Shown here piece by piece: positions 1,717 to 23,247 of a stretch of 60,000 bases of DNA (within the stretch, counting starts at the first letter, position 1; the number at the start of each line of letters is the position of its first letter). The notes below the pieces were generated by a model. The model did no database searches and was not told the DNA's origin. It was given only the letters and a program-made list of their open reading frames with translations. This stretch comes from Malacoraja senta (lineage: Eukaryota), in contig CM075989.1 of assembly GCA_038087875.1 (NCBI GenBank), forward strand, positions 10,232,001 through 10,292,000. The letters run 5' to 3'. The translations under genes and the position numbers were made by a program.

Positions 1717-1850
1717 CTTCTTCTTACTTATGGCATGCACAGCCTAAAGTTGAAGACACCAAAACACTACATCTATTTGTTTGTGCACGTCAGGTTGATT
1801 GCATTAGTCGAAACAGGGTGGACCACGTGAAGGTTGCCATCTCCCACCCC
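1717..1850 (-). mobile_element. HDV-ribozyme-headed short retroelement (SIDE/SINE-like), copy A
   Basis: Homologous to 4236-4375 with the same 5' end; (AAG)n tail; flanks ggagcaaact/ggggcaaact look like a TSD. Confidence 0.8.
1797..1850 (-). ncRNA. Minimal HDV-like ribozyme, copy A
   Basis: GGGGUGG-GA-GAUGGCA-ACC-UUCACGU-GGU-CCACCCU-GU-UUCGA-CUAA-UGCAAUC; P1, P2, P3, L3 and J4/2 can all be assigned. Confidence 0.8.
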
Positions 1851-3832: not shown

Positions 3833-4235
3833 TAGTTGTACATCTTCTTAAGTCCCTCACCCCTGGTAAAATCTTTCCCTGCATCCTTTCTAAGGTTGCA
3901 ACGTCACACCAAATCGTGGGGCTGGAATTATCCACAAACTCCAAATCGAACTGGGAAACTCTCACTGGACAATATTTATCCCAGAACCAAATGGATTATC
4001 TGGCCCTTAGTGGGAGATGGTTGCGTACAAACTGGCTGCTGTGCTTTGTACAGTGCTACAATAATGGCTCTTCAGAAATCATTCACTAGTACAATCACTG
4101 GGTGATTTTGGTGGGGGATTTTGGTGGGGAATCAAGAAAGTCAGTGTGTAGATTCAAAACCTGATTTCCTAGTAATCAACAATCTGTGATGCACATGCGT
4201 GAGAATGTAGAAACAAAGAACTGCAGACAGTGGTT

Positions 4236-4375
4236 CTCTTCTTGTTGCGTGTGGCGTGCACAGCCTAAAATTGTAGGACAACTTGTTCTATTTGATCTTA
4301 TTTGATTGTGCACGCCAGGTTGATTGCATTCGTCGAAACAGGGCGTACCACGTGAAGGTTGCAATCTCCCACCCC
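4236..4375 (-). mobile_element. HDV-ribozyme-headed short retroelement (SIDE/SINE-like), copy B
   Basis: Ribozyme head, 11-bp hairpin (4252-4262/4307-4317), AAG-rich tail, degenerate 12-bp TSD cagacagtggtt/cagatagttgtt. Confidence 0.8.
4322..4375 (-). ncRNA. Minimal HDV-like ribozyme, copy B
   Basis: GGGGUGG-GA-GAUUGCA-ACC-UUCACGU-GGU-ACGCCCU-GU-UUCGA-CGAA-UGCAAUC. Confidence 0.8.
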
Positions 4376-4445
4376 CAGATAGTTGTTAATATACAAAAAG
4401 ACACAAAGTGCTGGTGTAACTGGGTCAGGCAGAACATAGATAGAT

Positions 4446-4574
4446 TGTTAAAGAAGGAACTGCAGATGCTGGAAAATCGAAGGTACACAAAAATGCTGGA
4501 GAAACTCAGCGGGTGCAGCAGCATCTATGGAGCGAAGGAAATAGGCAACGTTTCGGGCCAAAACCCTTCTTCAG
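4446..4574 (-). mobile_element. Young Penelope-like pLTR fragment with hammerhead core
   Basis: Reverse complement of CTGAAGAAGGGTTTTGGCCCGAAACGTT at 4547-4574; 12-bp duplication ACATAGATAGAT; near-identical copy at ~4675-4784. Confidence 0.8.
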
Positions 4575-5202
4575 ACATAGATAGATGATGTTTCGGGTTG
4601 AGACCTTTCTTCAGAATGAAGTGTGACTTCATAATCCCTATGCTTTTTAAACCCAGTTTACCATCTTTAATGTTTTAAAGAAGGAACTGCAGATGCTGGA
4701 AAATCGAAGGTACACAAAAATGCTGGAGAAACTCAGCGGGTGCAGCAGCATCTATGGAGCGAAGGAAATAGGTAACGTTTCGGGTGCGTCCACAGGCTGT
4801 CCCTGGGTTAAGAATGCCCAACGTGCATTACGAACAAGCTCCCATAATATTATTAAATTCAAACGTCTGACGAGCAAACATATGTATGTTCCTTTGAGTG
4901 GCAGAGTAGTTACTACACTCTCTTCACTTTTGGTAATAGTTCGTTATTATAAGCATTCTATGGTTAGGATGCCATTCATTACAGAGGCATATTGAGTGAT
5001 ATTTGTGCATTTTCCAACTTATGAATGACTATAAAAACAGAACGTATTTGTTACCCAGGGCATCGGCAGCAAGATCGTGTTTACACTTGGAACAGTTTGC
5101 ACTTTACATTGTTGAGGTTACCAACATGATTTAATAGATTGTCCTGAGCGATACATTACTAATCCCAAAAAACAGGATGAGACCCATTCAACCTCTCAAC
5201 CT

Positions 5203-10011: not shown

Positions 10012-10763
10012 GAAAAATGGACAAATTCTGTATTTCCAGCACCCGTAGTCAGGATCAAACCCAGGTCTCTGGCACTGTAAGGCAGCAACTCTACCACTGT
10101 GCCACCGTGCCGCCCTATATCATATTTTGTTCTCTCCACATTCCCATCAGCTCCTCCCAGATTCCATCACTCACCTACAAAATCGGTGCAATTTACAGTG
10201 GCAATTAATCTGTCAACCAGAACAGTTTTGGTATGTGGGAGCTAACCAGAGCAGGGTGTTCATTTGGACAGGTACTTGGATAGGAAATATAGAACACAGA
10301 GCAATACAGCAGAGGAATAGGCCATTCACCCCGTAATGTGTGTGCTGAACATAATGCCAAGATAAATTAATCTCATCTGCCTGCTTGTGATCCATACAAC
10401 CTGCATTCGCAGCATATCCATGTGCCTATCTAAAAGCCTCTTAAACACCACTATTGTGGGATTTAGAGAGATATAGGCCAAATGCAAACAAAATGCTGGA
10501 GAAACTCAGCGGGTGAGGCAGCATCTATGGAGAGAAGGAATTGGCGACATTTCGGGTCGGGACCCTTCTTCAGACATGTGGGACTGATTCAGGAATATAC
10601 CTTTGTTGTCATGGGCGATTTGGGCCGAAGGGTCTGTTTCCATGACTCCGTGCTCTATGACTCCATGCCACCCGGGATAGCTCAGGCTGCCACAGGGAGA
10701 ATGTGCAAACTCCTCCACTCACAGAGGGCAGCAGAAGTCAGCATCAAACTCCAGGTCAGCGGA

Positions 10764-18881: not shown

Positions 18882-20268
18882 ATCTGGGAACAATATTTCC
18901 CCCTCTGGCTCTGTGTGCCTTTCCCCTTTATATTGCTGCCTCACAAATATCTTTTTGTCAGGACGCAGAAGATAAATGGAGGCGTTTGACTGCAGGCAAA
19001 TGAAGCACTTAGCAAAGACTAAAGGCCTTCTTGATAAAGAAAGGATCTGAATACATTTTGTTTGAAACGAATAAAGCCCATTGGCAAATTACATTTAGCG
19101 GCATATTGCTGAAGAGAAATATGTTTACCAAGTATCTGAGAGATGAATGGGGATTATTGGACTGCAGATCCAGGGATTAAACACAGCTGGGTAGATTTTC
19201 AACACTGCTTGAGTATAAAGGGATTGGGGATCTATTAATGGAAATAAAAATCAAATGCTTTCCTTAATGAGTGCTCAACCGATTTATTACTTGAAGGATG
19301 TGGAAAATCTATACAGTCATTCTGTCCACTTAGGGCAGCAAGAGACGACTTTTGCCTTTGTGTCAGTACGATTATGCTTCCAGGACACCTTTCTGGAGTC
19401 TGTGCAGCCCTCTTGGTGCCGGCACTGACACAGTGCGGCTGAAGGTGCCATCTAACCGATGTGAGGCCCCAGTGATGGTGGTGGGGGCAGGAGGATTCGC
19501 CCCGCTGTGTTTAGACTTTAGAGATACAACGCGGAAACAGACCTTTCGGCCCACCAAGTCTGCGCCGACCAGCGATCACACCAGCACTATCAGATTGCTA
19601 TTTGCTGGGGCCTTCTGCGCACATAATGGCTGCTGTATTTCCACATAACTTACCCCGCTCCACCTGGCCGTTCATCTCGCCCTGCCTTCCCCGTCCGATG
19701 CTTCTCTCCCGTGGTTTGAATGTGAAGATTTGTCATTCATAGAACAAATTCATTCTGTTTATCTTAGAATAATGGAGTGCAAACTATCGAACTGAAACTG
19801 AAAATCATCAACTGGATTAAAAGGGATGCGACAGCCTCTCTGGAACGTCGGAAGCTGACAGAAGTATAAAAAATTCGGAAAGGTATAGATAGGGTAGACA
19901 GAATATTTTTCTCAAGGTGGAAATGTCAAAGACTAAAGGGCATAGCTTTCAGGTGACAGGAGGTTAAAGGTTAAGGTTACGGAGGTCGTTTGGTTTAGTT
20001 TAGAGATACACTGCCGAAACAGGCCCTTCGGCAGTGTACCATCCCCGCACACTAACACTACCCTACTAGGGACAATTTACAATTATACCAAGCCATTATT
20101 TTATAGGGGAATAAAATAATTAAAAAAAAGAAAAATAATAGCATTTTACAGAGTAATACTATTTATTGTGTGTGGCTGTGTGAATATCAAATTGTACTTT
20201 GCATTTGTGTGTGTGATGAATCTAATTGTGTACAAGTCACAGTGTATCAAATGATATGTGATTGTGTA

Positions 20269-21149
20269 GAAAGAACTGCAGATGCTGGAAAAATCGAAGG
20301 TAGACAAAATAGCTGGAGAAACTCAGCGGGTGAGGCAGCACCTCATTTTTGCTTCGGTAGTTTACACCCCAGCGGTATGAACATTGACTTCTCCAATTTC
20401 AGGTAGTCCTTGCTTTCTCCTTCCTTCCCCTCCCCTTCCCAGCTCTCCCACAGCCTACTGTCTCCGCCTCTTCCTTTCTTTCCCCCCCCCCTCGACAATT
20501 CCCTCCATAACTCCCTGGTCAATTCGTCCCTTCCCAGCCAAACCACCCCCTCCCCTGGTACTTTCCCTTGCAACCGCAGGAAATGCCACACTTGTCGCTT
20601 TACCTCCCTCGTCGACTCCATCCAAGGACCCAAGCAGTCTTTCCAGGTGAGGCAGAGGTTCACCTACACCTCCTCCAACCTTATTTATTGCATCCGCTGT
20701 TCCAGGTGTCAACTACTTTACATCAGTGAGACCAAGCGCAGGCTTGGCGATTGCTTCGCCCAACACCTCCGCTCAGTTCGCGATAGCCAACCTGATCTCC
20801 CGATGGCTCAGCACTTCAACTCCCCCTCCCATTCCGAATCCAACCTTCCATGATCAGAGTGAGTCCCACCGCAAATTGGAGGAACAGCACCTAATATTTC
20901 GCTTGGGTAGTTTACACCCCAGCAGTATAAACATTGACTTCTCCAATTTCAGGTAGTCCCTGCTTTCTCCTTCCTTCCACTCCCCTCCCCTTCCCAGCTC
21001 TCCAACAGCCTACTGTCAACGCCTCTTCCTTTATTTTTCCTACCCCCCCCCCAACATCAGTCTGAAGAAGGGTCTCGACCCGAAACGTCGCCTATTCCTT
21101 TGTTCCTTTCCTCACCCACTGAGTTTCTCCAGCATTTTTGTCTACCTTC
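20269..21149 (+). mobile_element. Penelope-like (probably Neptune-type) retroelement 3' fragment with GIY-YIG endonuclease, direct and inverted pLTRs
   Basis: PGTFPCNRRKCHTC zinc-knuckle-like linker, NLIYCIRCSRCQLLYISETKRRL..RF-like GIY-YIG region, LEEQHLIFRLGSLHP..NIDF end; direct repeat ~20336-20490/20886-21050. Confidence 0.92.
21062..21089 (+). ncRNA. Minimal hammerhead ribozyme core in the Penelope-like pLTR
   Basis: CTGAAGA-A-GGGT(CTCG)ACCC-GAAACGTC lies just downstream of the GIY-YIG stop codon and pyrimidine tract. Confidence 0.75.
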
Positions 21150-21941
21150 GATTGTGTACATGTCAATGTGCTAATACCTGTCTTACACTGTATCATCTAT
21201 TGTAAGCCCGTGAACAGGAAGATTGAAATACACGTGTGTGCGTGTGTATGTGTGTGTGTATACATGCACATATGTATAGTTGTGTGCACTCACACACACA
21301 TACAACATGCAAAACATTTACACTGGAACTGTTGAAGAACTGAATCATGAACAATGAAATTAAATGGACAAGTAATTTTGGTGAATCTAAGAGGAATCAG
21401 GATCTACAGAATGTACCCGTCATTATCATGCCCTCTGAATCCCCGAGTACAATGCACGAGAAAATGCTTTCTCAGCTCCTCACTGTATATATGTGAAAAC
21501 ACAACAAGTTTTCTCCACAACATGATTCACCAAACAGCCAGTCGATGAATGATAAATTCTTGTGTCTGGGTCATTGAGGGAGGATATTTGACGAGGAAAT
21601 TCGCTGCTCGTTTCAGATTTTTTTTACAACTTGGCTGAGCCTGACCGCTCTGTAAGGACACTTCTCCTATTGAAGATGAAGTGTTCATCACTGTAAATGG
21701 GTTGCCAGAGGAAAATGCTACAGTCCTGACATGAAGTCAAACACTTTAAAATGTCCATTTTGCAAAAGACCATTCTGATGTTTTAAGTTGGGGAGGATTT
21801 TGTCTGGCACAGGAGGAGATGTGGCTTTGCTCAAGGCCAGAATACGGTTCAAAGAGTTCAAGGCTGACGTTTTCATCTGTCAACCACTTACTGGGGTATA
21901 CTTGAATGAGTGCAGGCACTTCTGTACTACCGCAGAGAGGA

Positions 21942-22110: not shown

Positions 22111-22829
22111 CTGCAATTATGCTACATTGGTGCCATGGTATTTGAAGGTAAACAGGTTCTCCAAGGCCAAATTAGAAATCCGAAGCTGGTCAGGCAGCAT
22201 CTGCAGAATGACAATAAGAGCTGAGATCTCAGGTTGGAAACCCTTCATCAGAACTGGGAAAAAGAGAGAGAAGGGCAGCTGAGAAGTTGGTGGGAGAGAT
22301 GCATAGGACAACGGGAATATCTGTGATAGGGTGAGGTCAGATTGAATGGGGCAGTTAGAGGGTGATTATGCTTCATTGTGTGTTAGGCGTGGCTAGTCCA
22401 GGGCAGAGACTCTTACCCAGGAGGTCAGGCTGTACTAATGGAGAGAGCAAACTGAGCCAACGTCACATATGGATGTCTACAACCTGGTCCGACACAGACA
22501 GTGAAGGTGAGTTGCCTGAACTTGGGGAATTCAATATGGAATTCGAGAGCTGCATCATTCCTGAATGGAAAATGAGGTGTTGTTTCTTAATTTGCACCTC
22601 ATGCAGCAGAATGTTCTGATTTAACTCACGGGTGCATCATCAAAATAAACTGATGCTAATTCACCTCAGATGAGATTGTTTTGTTGGAGAAAAGTACAGA
22701 AGCGGGGAGACAAGACTAAGCCAGGATTTAAAAACAAGGGATGTTGTGAGTTGAGACACTGACTGAAGTAGTTTGAATGAAATCAAGATGGGATTCGATC
22801 AGCTGAAAAAAAATCAGTTCTCTCTTTGA

Positions 22830-23247
22830 AGGTAGACAAACATGCTGGAGAAACTCAGCGGGTGAGGCAGCATCTATGGAGCAAAGGAAATAGGCAACGT
22901 TTTGGGTCGAAACCTTTCTTCAGACTGATGGGAGGGTGAGGGGGGCGGGAGGAAGAAGGGAAGAGGCGGAGCCAGAGGGCTGAGGGAGAGCTGAGAAGGG
23001 GAGGAGAAAGCAAGGACTACCTGAAATTAGAGAAGTCAATGTTCATACCGCTGGGGTGCAAACTGCCCAAGCGAAATATGAGGTGCTGCTCCTCCAATTT
23101 ACGGTGGTGTTCACTCCGGCCATGGAGGAGGCCCAGGACAGAAAGGACGGATTTGGAATTTGACGTTGGTGGTGATGTTTCGGTTACTCCAGCATTCGGT
23201 GACTATCTTCGGTGTAAACCAGCATCTGCAGTTCCTTCCTACACAGC
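22830..23247 (-). mobile_element. Penelope-like fragment with inverted pLTR
   Basis: Minus-strand GIY-YIG C-terminus and hammerhead core (22896-22923), plus-strand tail at ~23184-23245, duplication TCTCTCTTTGA on both sides. Confidence 0.88.

What the first reader, a model, noticed from the sequence alone, without database searches (positions are those of the whole stretch)
4322..4375. Minimal 54-nt HDV-like self-cleaving ribozyme at the exact 5' end of a short repeat
Seen (minus strand): GGGGUGG[P1] GA GAUUGCA[P2] ACC[P3] UUCACGU[L3] GGU[P3'] ACGCCCU[P1'] GU UUCGA CGAA[J4/2] UGCAAUC[P2']. Established: this is the strand order of the HDV/CPEB3 nested double pseudoknot, with a G.U wobble at the cleavage site, a 7-nt L3 with U at position 1 and G at position 6, a single C-G P1.1 pair beside U.U as in CPEB3, and the catalytic C in CGAA. 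P4 is essentially absent, as in the minimal HDV-like ribozymes I know mainly from metagenomes and phages. Inference: cleavage 5' of G4375 generates the element's 5' end.
Basis: partly seen in the sequence, partly recalled or inferred. Interest (0 to 1): 0.93.

Follow-up and report, generated by a model that had tools for sequence, protein, structure and literature searches.

The report
Tiny self-cutting RNA heading a SINE
A 140-base jumping-gene copy begins with a 54-base RNA motif that matches the smallest known hepatitis-delta-type self-cutting ribozymes, so far described almost only in gut phages, and thousands of copies start exactly at its predicted cut site.

Summary
Window 4322-4375 (minus strand) has the strand order, helix lengths and core bases of an HDV-type nested double pseudoknot without P4.

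It is the first 54 nt of a ~135-nt non-autonomous retroposon (window 4236-4375). The rest is an 11-bp-stem hairpin and an (AAG)n tail, flanked by target-site duplications.

- The 1.94-Gb eukaryotic genome holds 6,280 near-perfect 3' ends and 3,637 ribozyme heads within 2 mismatches of the family consensus.
- Homology starts at the predicted cleavage-site G in 30 of 30 young copies.
- The consensus has a perfect 7-bp P1; the window copy has one mismatch.

The core and linker are those of published phage "theta" minimal HDV-like ribozymes. That paper shows four to be active in vitro and places nearly 99% in Caudoviricetes phages (PMC10879173). With the same core, 37 of 117 metagenome loci fold the same way with different, covarying P1 and P2.

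Cleavage itself is not shown. PolyA RNA reads run across the site with no pile of starts, and no partner LINE was found.

Verdict: very probably a real ribozyme doing a known job (5' processing of a retroelement RNA), in a new variant and a new host.

The parts
4236..4375 (-). One full-length copy (young subfamily 'A') of a ~135-140-nt non-autonomous non-LTR retroposon: ribozyme head, hairpin, (AAG)-type tail
   Evidence: Copies 96-100% identical elsewhere in the genome, with homology from nt 1. Reads from other copies of the surrounding older repeat join 4224-4235 to 4383-4399 and skip 157-171 bases, which marks empty sites (table 5).
4322..4375 (-). 54-nt P4-less HDV-like (theta-type) ribozyme motif; predicted cleavage 5' of G4375
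   Evidence: Same field-by-field layout as the published theta ribozymes.
4369..4375 (-). P1 5' strand (nt 1-7)
   Evidence: Pairs with 4340-4346. G1.U36 wobble; 6 of 7 pairs in this copy and 7 of 7 in the consensus.
4360..4366 (-). P2 5' strand (nt 10-16); J1/2 is 4367-4368
   Evidence: 7 Watson-Crick pairs with 4322-4328. The nested fold of the whole element forms this helix.
4347..4359 (-). P3 (ACC), L3 (UUCACGU), P3' (GGU), nt 17-29
   Evidence: Identical 13-mer occurs 410 times in supplementary file 5 of PMC10879173. L3 is the same as in the Rfam CPEB3 consensus.
4340..4346 (-). P1 3' strand (nt 30-36); 4346 is the window-specific A (consensus C)
   Evidence: In one search table 3, T>G at 4346 appears in nearly all reads of 4 runs.
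4333..4339 (-). P1.1 partner G37 and U38, then the linker that replaces P4 (nt 37-43, G-UUUCGA)
   Evidence: The same UUUCGA hexamer is the L4 field of a published theta subgroup.
4329..4332 (-). J4/2 (CGAA), with the putative catalytic C at 4332 (nt 44)
   Evidence: The first position of J4/2 is the catalytic C in minimal drzs (PMC10879173). The older subfamily has CUAA.
4322..4328 (-). P2 3' strand (nt 48-54)
4252..4317 (-). 3' hairpin with an 11-bp stem (nt 59-124). The stem is conserved between subfamilies and the apical part is diverged. Probable reverse-transcriptase recognition module (inferred).
4236..4251 (-). Single-stranded 3' end and degenerate (AAG)n tail
4376..4387 (-). 5' target-site duplication (12 nt, 10 of 12 identical to 4224-4235)
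   Evidence: Read. Analogous 8-14-nt duplications flank the genomic copies.
4224..4235 (-). 3' target-site duplication
1717..1850 (-). Second, older copy (subfamily 'B') with its own flanking duplication. Its ribozyme head is 1797-1850, with CUAA in J4/2 and one P2 mismatch in this copy.

Best explanation
The 54 nt are a minimal (P4-less, theta-type) HDV-like self-cleaving ribozyme that forms the head of a short non-autonomous non-LTR retroposon. Proposed mechanism: a copy is transcribed passively as part of any longer host transcript. The ribozyme folds into the nested double pseudoknot. The cytosine at the first J4/2 position (nt 44, window 4332), together with a Mg2+ ion held near the L3 U20.G25 pair, catalyses scission 5' of G1. 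This strips off all upstream host RNA and leaves an RNA that starts exactly at nt 1. A LINE-encoded reverse transcriptase, not identified here, recognises the 3' hairpin and (AAG)n tail and copies the RNA into a new site by target-primed reverse transcription. Each new copy therefore starts at G1, ends in (AAG)n and is flanked by a target-site duplication. Shown here: the sequence and structure fit, the copy boundaries, the duplications and tails, the copy numbers, the conservation of head and stem between subfamilies, and the identity of core and linker with ribozymes that a paper reports as active. Inferred: catalysis by this sequence, co-transcription, and the role of the hairpin and tail.
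For: (1) Fold. P1 is 7 bp in the consensus with G1.U36, P2 is 7 bp, P3 is 3 bp, and L3 is 7 nt with U20 and G25. P1.1 is C22-G37 plus U.U, and the 4-nt J4/2 starts with C. These are the features given for HDV and CPEB3 in PMC4836649 (passages) and PMC4908430 (section 0 part 1). The nested MFE of the consensus 54-mer is exactly P1+P3 (-12.4 kcal/mol) and leaves both P2 strands free.
(2) Rfam. On the 63-nt stretch the only two Rfam matches out of 4227 families are HDV-class models aligned end to end, though both are sub-threshold.
(3) Published class. The motif fits the field layout of the published theta ribozymes. The P3-L3-P3' 13-mer occurs 410 times in that paper's supplementary file 5. The UUUCGA linker with CUAA or CGAA is a published subgroup. 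Three IMG/VR phage contigs carry the same core and linker with different complementary P1 and P2. Four theta ribozymes were Mg2+-dependent self-cleavers that C-to-U mutation inactivated (PMC10879173 section 8).
(4) Covariation in the class. 37 of 117 metagenome loci that share only the core pattern have the full fold. Among the first 80 loci, 27 fold, giving 24 unique sequences with 21 distinct P1 and 22 distinct P2. A control with shuffled flanks gave 0.02 folds per replicate. 18 of those 27 loci carry a tRNA gene; by my reading of the coordinates, 17 of them end at the predicted cut site.
(5) Boundaries. Homology begins at G1 in 30 of 30 subfamily-A loci (27 independent insertions) and from nt 1-2 in 29 of 30 subfamily-B loci. 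Target-site duplications abut G1. In a sample taken by genome position, 28 of 30 3' ends have the ribozyme head upstream.
(6) Selection on source copies. The A and B consensus sequences differ at 2 of 54 ribozyme positions. One turns U5.G into U5-A. The other changes the variable second base of J4/2 (G to U). The hairpin's apical ~24 nt are scrambled, including an indel.
(7) Chance. 0.075 descriptor hits are expected per 60-kb window.
Against: No biochemical test of this sequence exists.
Rfam scores are far below gathering (10.7 against 44 bits; 8.5 against 35; E-values 3.8 and 6.7).
RNA reads: in polyA RNA-seq raw reads of a related organism (run X24), 761 reads lie on the element. 217 and 34 of them continue past 4375 and 4376 into unlike flanks, and the tool lists no place where many molecules begin. 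Most transcribed copies in that library were therefore not visibly cleaved. They could also be antisense or decayed copies.
P1.1 has only one Watson-Crick pair, and the exact 3' core without the A is absent from the published theta table (0 rows) and from IMG/VR (0 loci).
J1/2 is only 2 nt. In a different ribozyme, 0-1-nt spacers were nearly inactive and 3-nt spacers slow (PMC4908430).
No autonomous LINE carrying this head or this 3' end was found.
My descriptor and the metagenome pattern were designed from the motif itself, so they are not independent tests of the core.
Confidence: 0.8

Rival explanations
1. The sharp 5' end is a transcription start. The element would be an ordinary SINE with an internal promoter, and the ribozyme-like fold would be incidental.
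For: Sharp 5' ends are what promoter-driven SINEs show, so the boundary evidence does not by itself separate the two readings. By eye, nt 5-15 and 36-46 loosely resemble pol III A and B boxes; this compares them with recalled consensus sequences, about 6 of 9 specified positions each, and is my own reading rather than a tool result. RNA reads show no pile of starts from cleavage, but none from initiation either.
Against: The element has no tRNA, 5S or 7SL likeness (Rfam gathering 0 hits; ARAGORN 0 genes). The subfamily-B consensus and several A copies contain a TTTT run inside the element; that such a run would stop pol III is general knowledge, not tested here. The complete HDV-type architecture is unlikely by chance (0.075 per window). 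Core and linker match a published, partly assayed ribozyme class base for base. The head is conserved between subfamilies while the middle of the element is not.
Confidence: 0.07
2. The head descends from a true HDV-like ribozyme but no longer cleaves, or cleaves too slowly to matter, because P1.1 is weak, P4 is absent and J1/2 is short. On this view it is kept as a structured 5' module, for example to bind the partner's protein or to stop reverse transcription at a defined end.
For: PolyA RNA reads run across the site (217 and 34 reads) with no pile of starts. The exact 3' core, which lacks the A that gives theta ribozymes a second P1.1 pair, is absent from the published table and from IMG/VR.
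Against: The catalytic C, U20, G25 and G1.U36 are all kept in both subfamily consensus sequences, and the two differences between them fall at tolerated places. 37 metagenome sequences with the same G-U P1.1 partner dinucleotide keep the full fold. Among the 27 such folds in the first 80 loci, 18 loci carry a tRNA gene, 17 of them ending at the predicted cut site by my reading, as expected of working theta ribozymes. The CPEB3 ribozyme works with one G-C and one U-U in P1.1 (PMC4836649). Something must still create the exact 5' end at G1.
Confidence: 0.1
3. Contamination or misassembly: the motif would really belong to phage DNA in the sample and not to the eukaryotic genome.
For: Its nearest sequence relatives are phage theta ribozymes.
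Against: There are 3,637 near-intact heads and 6,280 3' ends spread over the large contigs. They have diverse flanks, target-site duplications, two or more subfamilies and CpG decay. The element is present in runs labelled as several related organisms. No tRNA is adjacent.
Confidence: 0.01

Closest known systems
Theta ribozymes and other minimal HDV-like ribozymes (drz-Mtgn-1 type) of Caudoviricetes gut phages (Kienbeck et al. 2024, PMC10879173; Riccitelli et al. 2014, seen only as a citation)
   Same: No P4. Similar size: 54 nt here, 55-60 nt in my metagenome set, and a 56-nt product in the paper. Same field layout. Identical P3-L3-P3' 13-mer. Same UUUCGA linker followed by CUAA or CGAA. G.U at the cut site, and P1 and P2 of 7 bp.
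   Different: The host is a 1.94-Gb eukaryotic genome, not a phage. The motif sits at the 5' end of a retroposon, not at a tRNA 3' end (0 tRNAs). It lacks the A that makes the second P1.1 pair, and that exact 3' core is in 0 rows of the published table and 0 IMG/VR loci. It is present in thousands of dispersed copies.
HDV-like ribozymes at the 5' ends of non-LTR retrotransposons (R2, RTE, other LINEs, L1Tc) and their non-autonomous derivatives (NARTc; R2 SIDEs)
   Same: The ribozyme is the first module of the element. The predicted cut equals the element's 5' end. Processing from a co-transcript would make a promoter unnecessary. Short non-autonomous forms made of the ribozyme head plus the 3' end are known (abstracts of PMC3185411, PMC3383444 and PMC3414825; passages of PMC7761336).
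   Different: Whether those ribozymes all carry P4 is my recollection; I read no structures here. This one has none. No autonomous partner with the same head or tail was found in this genome. Insertions are dispersed and not site-specific.
Mammalian CPEB3 ribozyme (Rfam RF00622)
   Same: The L3 heptamer, the last bases of P1' plus GU, and CGAAU are the same as in the Rfam consensus. P1.1 has one G-C and one U-U (PMC4836649). Numbering is the same through nt 38.
   Different: CPEB3 has a P4 hairpin and is a single-copy intronic element. The match here scores 8.5 bits against a gathering score of 35.
Hammerhead- or twister-bearing non-autonomous retroelements (retrozymes; Schistosoma twister variants)
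   Same: A small self-cleaving ribozyme built into a short non-autonomous retroelement (abstracts).
   Different: A different ribozyme class. Retrozymes are tandem or circular-RNA based; this element is a dispersed single unit with a target-site duplication and a microsatellite tail.

Membership tests
HDV-like (delta-like) self-cleaving ribozymes | Nested double pseudoknot in the strand order P1-J1/2-P2-P3-L3-P3'-P1'-P1.1-(P4)-J4/2-P2', with the cleavage site at the first nucleotide of P1 | tested here: met
   Definition from PMC4908430 and PMC4836649.
HDV-like (delta-like) self-cleaving ribozymes | P1 of 6-7 bp with a G.U wobble at its base, and P2 of about 7 bp | tested here: met
   Consensus P1 7/7 (G1.U36) and window copy 6/7; P2 7/7.
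HDV-like (delta-like) self-cleaving ribozymes | L3 with U20 and G25 (metal-binding wobble), and a catalytic C in a ~4-nt J4/2 | tested here: met
   The sequence shows U20, G25 and C44. Their roles are taken from PMC4836649 and PMC10879173.
HDV-like (delta-like) self-cleaving ribozymes | P1.1 mini-helix between L3 and the strand after P1' | tested here: inconclusive
   Only C22-G37 is a standard pair, and U21.U38 is not. CPEB3 has the same arrangement.
HDV-like (delta-like) self-cleaving ribozymes | Score at or above the gathering threshold of a curated Rfam HDV-class model | tested here: not met
   RF02682 10.7 bits against 44; RF00622 8.5 bits against 35. 0 hits at gathering. 16-20 P4 positions of the models are missing from the sequence, and the structure lines printed do not mark P2 as paired.
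HDV-like (delta-like) self-cleaving ribozymes | Mg2+-dependent self-scission abolished by C-to-U at the catalytic cytosine | not testable with these tools
   A bench assay is needed.
Minimal HDV-like / theta ribozymes | P4 replaced by a short linker (5-8 nt in the published table) | tested here: met
   5-6 nt here.
Minimal HDV-like / theta ribozymes | Conserved letters of the published fields: ACC/GCC | T | CC/TC | NCGY | GGT/GGC ... CNAA(N) | tested here: met
   Compared by eye with supplementary file 6 part 1; counts. The descriptor file itself is a picture that I could not read.
Minimal HDV-like / theta ribozymes | Two-pair P1.1 (CC/GG, TC/GA or GC/GC in the rows seen) | tested here: not met
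   TC/GT here. 0 rows in supplementary file 5 have this 3' core, but 37 metagenome loci with GT keep the fold.
Minimal HDV-like / theta ribozymes | Cleavage site within 5 nt of a tRNA 3' end (the tRNA-associated subgroup); phage host | tested here: not met
   No tRNA in window 4100-4500. The genome is eukaryotic, 1.94 Gb.
Retrotransposon 5' HDV-like ribozymes (R2, RTE, L1Tc; NARTc, SIDEs) | Ribozyme at the exact 5' end of a retroelement that shows hallmarks of target-primed reverse transcription | tested here: met
   Boundaries, target-site duplications and (AAG)n tails.
Retrotransposon 5' HDV-like ribozymes (R2, RTE, L1Tc; NARTc, SIDEs) | An autonomous element that shares the head and/or the 3' end | tested here: inconclusive
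   None found. 28 of 30 3' ends are the short element and 2 are truncated copies. The negated-pattern scans gave only deletion variants and singletons. By my estimate those scans would catch a given LINE only about one time in three each.
Retrotransposon 5' HDV-like ribozymes (R2, RTE, L1Tc; NARTc, SIDEs) | Cleaved 5' ends in cellular RNA | tested here: inconclusive
   No pile of read starts at 4375, and 251 reads run through the site. The library is polyA-selected, comes from a related organism, and the element is multi-copy.
Classical SINE (pol III, tRNA/7SL/5S head) | A head derived from a small RNA gene | tested here: not met

The most novel reading that the evidence does not exclude
This is the first eukaryotic family of minimal, P4-less HDV-like ribozymes. 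A SINE-like element's only 5' module is a 54-nt theta-type ribozyme, so it needs no promoter and rides on any host transcript. Its base-for-base identity with phage theta ribozymes in the core and in the UUUCGA linker reflects common descent, that is, a cross-kingdom transfer of a ribozyme module between phages and an animal retroelement, and not convergence on the same minimal solution.
Probability: 0.1. Interest if true: 0.85.

Novelty: new variant of a known kind. Interest (0 to 1): 0.62.

Why it matters
Minimal HDV-like ribozymes have been placed almost entirely in phages. The theta paper puts nearly 99% in Caudoviricetes; its search of a limited set of eukaryotic genomes is described without any eukaryotic hit being mentioned (PMC10879173). 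Here one sits in thousands of copies in an animal-sized genome. It does the job known for the larger HDV-like ribozymes of R2, RTE and L1Tc, which is to trim a retroelement RNA to its exact 5' end.

If it is active, three things follow:
- It would be among the smallest natural eukaryotic self-cleavers.
- It would be a clean example of a promoter-less, ribozyme-headed SINE.
- It would be a test case for whether the same minimal catalytic core arose twice or moved between phages and eukaryotes.

It also shows that Rfam-based annotation misses this class entirely.

Tried and rejected
- Rfam at gathering on the whole window: 0 hits. Rfam by E-value on 4200-4500: only a chance snoRNA match.
- Partner LINE, not found. 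(a) 30 loci taken by genome position for the 3' 33-mer gave 28 short elements and 2 5'-truncated copies; one odd upstream stretch (L063) is single-copy. (b) A scan for the ribozyme end followed by three bases unlike the SINE gave 169 matches. The 100 listed are deletion variants or singletons with no recurring foreign sequence. (c) A scan for the terminal 17 nt preceded by non-SINE bases gave 7 matches, 6 of them SINE variants. These filters would miss a LINE whose own bases happen to match the SINE at the negated positions.
- No RNA holder was listed for the stretch.
- Earlier findings of this scan: nothing on this genome or this sequence. The three hits by words concern other genomes and did not change my reading.
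- Pfam on the six longest ORFs of the window: nothing. I did not determine the organism's lineage.
- The bacterial promoter and terminator scan is irrelevant for a eukaryote.
- A literature search for the L3 heptamer returned only unrelated papers.
- Papers not held: Webb and Luptak 2011, Ruminski 2011, Webb 2009. Riccitelli 2014 was seen only as a citation.
- Searches for a vertebrate or other SINE with an HDV-like ribozyme found only L1Tc/NARTc, R2 SIDEs, retrozymes and twister elements.
- I did not build a covariance model from the metagenome set, because its core was fixed by my own pattern and a hit would be circular.
Full report
**Observation.** The stretch is unique in the window at up to 3 mismatches, with 0 matches in 100 shuffles.

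Numbering from the 5' G (nt 1 = 4375), the segments are:
- P1: nt 1-7 with nt 30-36
- J1/2: nt 8-9
- P2: nt 10-16 with nt 48-54
- P3: nt 17-19 with nt 27-29
- L3: nt 20-26
- P1.1 partners: nt 37-38
- Linker: nt 39-43
- J4/2: nt 44-47

P2 has 7 of 7 and P3 3 of 3 Watson-Crick pairs. In the window copy P1 has 6 of 7 pairs, with G1.U36 at the base and a G7.A30 mismatch at the top.

I wrote a loose descriptor of this architecture after seeing the motif. It finds this site and no other in the window, on either strand. Forty simulated windows gave 3 hits in all, a mean of 0.075.

**What the 54 nt belong to.** A self-comparison of the window found a second copy at 1717-1850. It is 81% identical, and its homology ends at the same first G.

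The window lies in a 1.94-Gb assembly of 6,182 contigs. Searching that genome with the younger copy gave 558 first-look candidates, of which 40 were scored; all 40 are 96-100% identical and start at query position 1-2. The older copy gave 2,242 candidates, of which 40 were scored.

- In all 30 fetched loci of the younger subfamily 'A', the flanks upstream of the first G are unrelated and homology begins at that G. Three pairs of these loci are segmental duplicates, so they represent 27 independent insertions.
- In the 30 loci of the older subfamily 'B', 24 match from nt 1, 5 from nt 2, and 1 is truncated at nt 9.
- Downstream, homology ends after about 132 nt in an (AAG)n run.
- The 8-14 nt that precede the first G recur right after the tail, for example in L002, L004, L006, L010, L016, L029 and L030. 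These are target-site duplications.

The window copy runs from 4375 down to 4236. Its duplication is 12 nt (4376-4387 against 4224-4235, 10 of 12 identical). Reads from other copies of the surrounding older repeat join 4224-4235 to 4383-4399 and skip the element, as empty sites would (table 5).

The whole-genome pattern counts are exact:
- The 3' terminal 33-mer occurs 6,280 times at up to 1 mismatch; the reversed-pattern control gives 0.
- The subfamily-A consensus 54-mer occurs 3,637 times at up to 2 mismatches, and the first 100 places listed are all exact.
- Among the first 30 3' ends by genome position, 28 have the ribozyme head upstream and 2 are 5'-truncated.

The element is therefore a short, abundant, mostly full-length non-LTR retroposon.

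**Anatomy of the element.** The family consensus has C where the window copy has A30, so the consensus P1 is a perfect 7-bp helix. The nested minimum-energy fold of the consensus 54-mer is exactly P1 plus P3 (-12.4 kcal/mol). Both P2 strands stay free, and P2 plus P3 scores -7.3 kcal/mol.

Folding the whole element gives two domains. The first is the head, where the nested algorithm forms P2. The second is a separate hairpin at nt 59-124 with an 11-bp stem. A single-stranded 3' end and the tail follow. The z-scores are unremarkable (-1.3 and -1.2).

Between the A and B consensus sequences the head differs at 2 of 54 positions. G32 to A turns the U5.G wobble into U5-A. G45 to U changes the second base of J4/2. 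The stem strands and the last ~36 nt are nearly identical, but the apical ~24 nt of the hairpin are scrambled and include a 4-nt indel. That pattern is what selection on the source copies would produce if they need the head and the 3' stem and tail.

The common variants seen in reads of four runs fall at J1/2 (nt 8), at nt 32, at nt 45 and at CpG sites (table 3).

**Is it an HDV-type ribozyme?** The features that the literature gives for the class are all present:
- Two coaxial stacks forming a nested double pseudoknot, with cleavage at the first nucleotide of P1.
- P1 of 6-7 bp and P2 of about 7 bp, joined by a short J1/2 (PMC4908430, section 0 part 1).
- A G1.U36/37 wobble.
- The U20.G25 pair at the base of P3 that holds the catalytic Mg2+.
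- The catalytic cytosine in a 4-nt J4/2.
- In CPEB3, a P1.1 made of one G-C and one U-U pair (PMC4836649, passages).

The motif even shares the CPEB3 numbering through nt 38.

Rfam gives no match at gathering. On the 63-nt stretch alone, its only two matches out of 4227 families are HDV-F-prausnitzii (10.7 bits, E 3.8, aligned 4322-4375 over the full model) and CPEB3 (8.5 bits, E 6.7). The L3 heptamer, the end of P1' plus GU, and CGAAU are identical to the CPEB3 consensus. These scores are not significant. The sequence lacks the 16-20 model positions of P4, and the structure lines printed do not mark P2 as paired.

**The closest relatives are phage theta ribozymes.** Kienbeck et al. 2024 (PMC10879173) describe minimal HDV-like ribozymes without P4. 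I read the outline, Results part 1, sections 8 and 13, supplementary file 6 part 1, and searches in file 5.

- The paper reports 1,753 unique tRNA-associated examples.
- Four were tested, and all were Mg2+-dependent self-cleavers that the catalytic C-to-U change inactivated. One product was 56 nt.
- Nearly 99% of these ribozymes lie in Caudoviricetes. The paper mentions 12 hits in bacteria and no eukaryotic hit; its eukaryote set was RefSeq 'complete genome' eukaryotes plus human and mouse.

The published tables cut each ribozyme into fields, and the motif here fits them one for one. Its P3-L3-P3' 13-mer occurs 410 times in supplementary file 5. One published subgroup has the same L3, then GA, then the linker TTTCGA, then CTAA or CGAA. 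That contiguous 3' core is in 117 and 2 rows of file 5.

The SINE head has G, then the same TTTCGA, then CGAA (subfamily A) or CTAA (subfamily B). It therefore lacks only the A that would make the second P1.1 pair. That exact version is in 0 rows of file 5 and 0 IMG/VR loci.

Three IMG/VR phage contigs of 84-93 kb carry the version with A. Aligned to the SINE head, they are identical in the core and in the linker plus J4/2, while P1 and P2 differ and are complementary within each sequence.

- 37 of the 117 loci have a complete P4-less fold, as do 3 of 3 viral loci.
- In the first 80 loci, 27 fold. They give 24 unique sequences with 21 distinct P1 and 22 distinct P2, linkers mostly of 5 U/A-rich nt, and total lengths of 55-60 nt.
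- Shuffling the 5' flanks gives 0.02 folds per replicate.
- ARAGORN finds a tRNA gene in 18 of those 27 loci. By my reading of the coordinates, 17 of them end at the predicted cleavage site, which marks these as theta ribozymes.

All of them carry the same G-U dinucleotide after P1' as the SINE head, so the one-pair P1.1 occurs in natural theta-type ribozymes. One caveat applies: the core was fixed by my pattern, so this tests the helices and the architecture, not the core.

**Evidence on cleavage in cells.** The run index listed no RNA holder (noted under Tried and rejected). I laid raw polyA RNA-seq reads of a related organism (X24) and contigs of three other organisms on window 4180-4440.

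The element is present in all four runs. In X24, 761 reads lie on it. 217 reads continue beyond 4375 and 34 beyond 4376 into flanks that differ from read to read. The tool lists no place where many molecules begin or end.

So most element-bearing transcripts in that library are read-through RNA. They are either uncleaved or come from antisense or decayed copies. This counts against efficient cleavage of the bulk of copies. It does not test the consensus sequence, and polyA selection and the multi-copy nature of the element both blur the signal.

**Partner element.** I found no LINE that shares the head or the 3' end. The reverse transcriptase that moves the element is therefore unknown, and the roles of the hairpin and tail are inferred by analogy with other LINE-dependent short elements.

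**Rivals.**
- A promoter-defined 5' end would also give sharp boundaries. But the head has no small-RNA likeness. TTTT runs lie inside many copies. A chance match to a complete architecture of a published, partly assayed ribozyme class is very unlikely.
- A catalytically dead relic is harder to exclude, given the read-through reads, the single standard P1.1 pair and the 2-nt J1/2. Against it, all catalytic-core positions are kept in both subfamily consensus sequences.
- Phage contamination is excluded by the thousands of dispersed copies with target-site duplications.

**Comparison and novelty.** In function the element matches the known 5' HDV-like ribozymes of R2, RTE, other LINEs and L1Tc, and their short non-autonomous derivatives NARTc and R2 SIDEs (abstracts; passages of PMC7761336). 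In form it matches phage theta ribozymes.

Four full-text searches found no report of a P4-less HDV-like ribozyme in a eukaryotic retroelement, nor of an HDV-like ribozyme heading a SINE-like family outside trypanosomatids and R2. Repeat databases were not available to me, so prior annotation of this family cannot be excluded.

I rate it a new variant of a known kind. I put the confidence that the consensus self-cleaves and thereby sets the element's 5' end at about 0.8.

Noticed in passing
window 4440-4580, with about 20 further copies, e.g. 22828-22925, 10490-10577, 20268-20343, 21060-21153: An unrelated short repeat just upstream of the element is scattered through the window on both strands (70-91% identity). 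A 110-nt stretch at 4448-4557 recurs at 4675-4784 with 99% identity. It is probably another SINE family.
   Followed up: no
window 4198-4233 and 4385-4422: The ribozyme-headed element is inserted into an older repeat. Reads and contigs from other copies of that repeat join the two sides and skip 157-171 bases, as empty sites would (table 5).
   Followed up: partly
genome-wide, e.g. G000:C1:31737618, C1:170364477, C2:59635425 (one search list): A recurrent variant of the element lacks the ~18 nt after the ribozyme, which is the 5' strand of the hairpin stem. The deletion lies between two AATC repeats. About 20 of the 100 listed places show it by eye, so it may be a subfamily that retroposes without the stem.
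   Followed up: no
L104 and L138 (metagenome contigs): Two theta-type ribozymes resemble the SINE head even in P2: a 19-nt run through P2, P3 and L3 is identical, and 42-43 of 54 positions match overall, against a median of 37-38. This could be chance or a preference for G-C pairs at the base of P2.
   Followed up: partly
L104, L113, L115, L117, L120, L123, L138: In these metagenome loci a theta-type ribozyme sits between two tRNA genes on the same strand, so it would separate tRNAs in a cluster.
   Followed up: no
table 3, window 4332: The putative catalytic C is changed to U (a CpG transition) in about 7-16% of the RNA reads of run X24, but in only 1-2.5% of the contig depth in X1 and X5. 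This suggests many transcribed copies are decayed ones.
   Followed up: no
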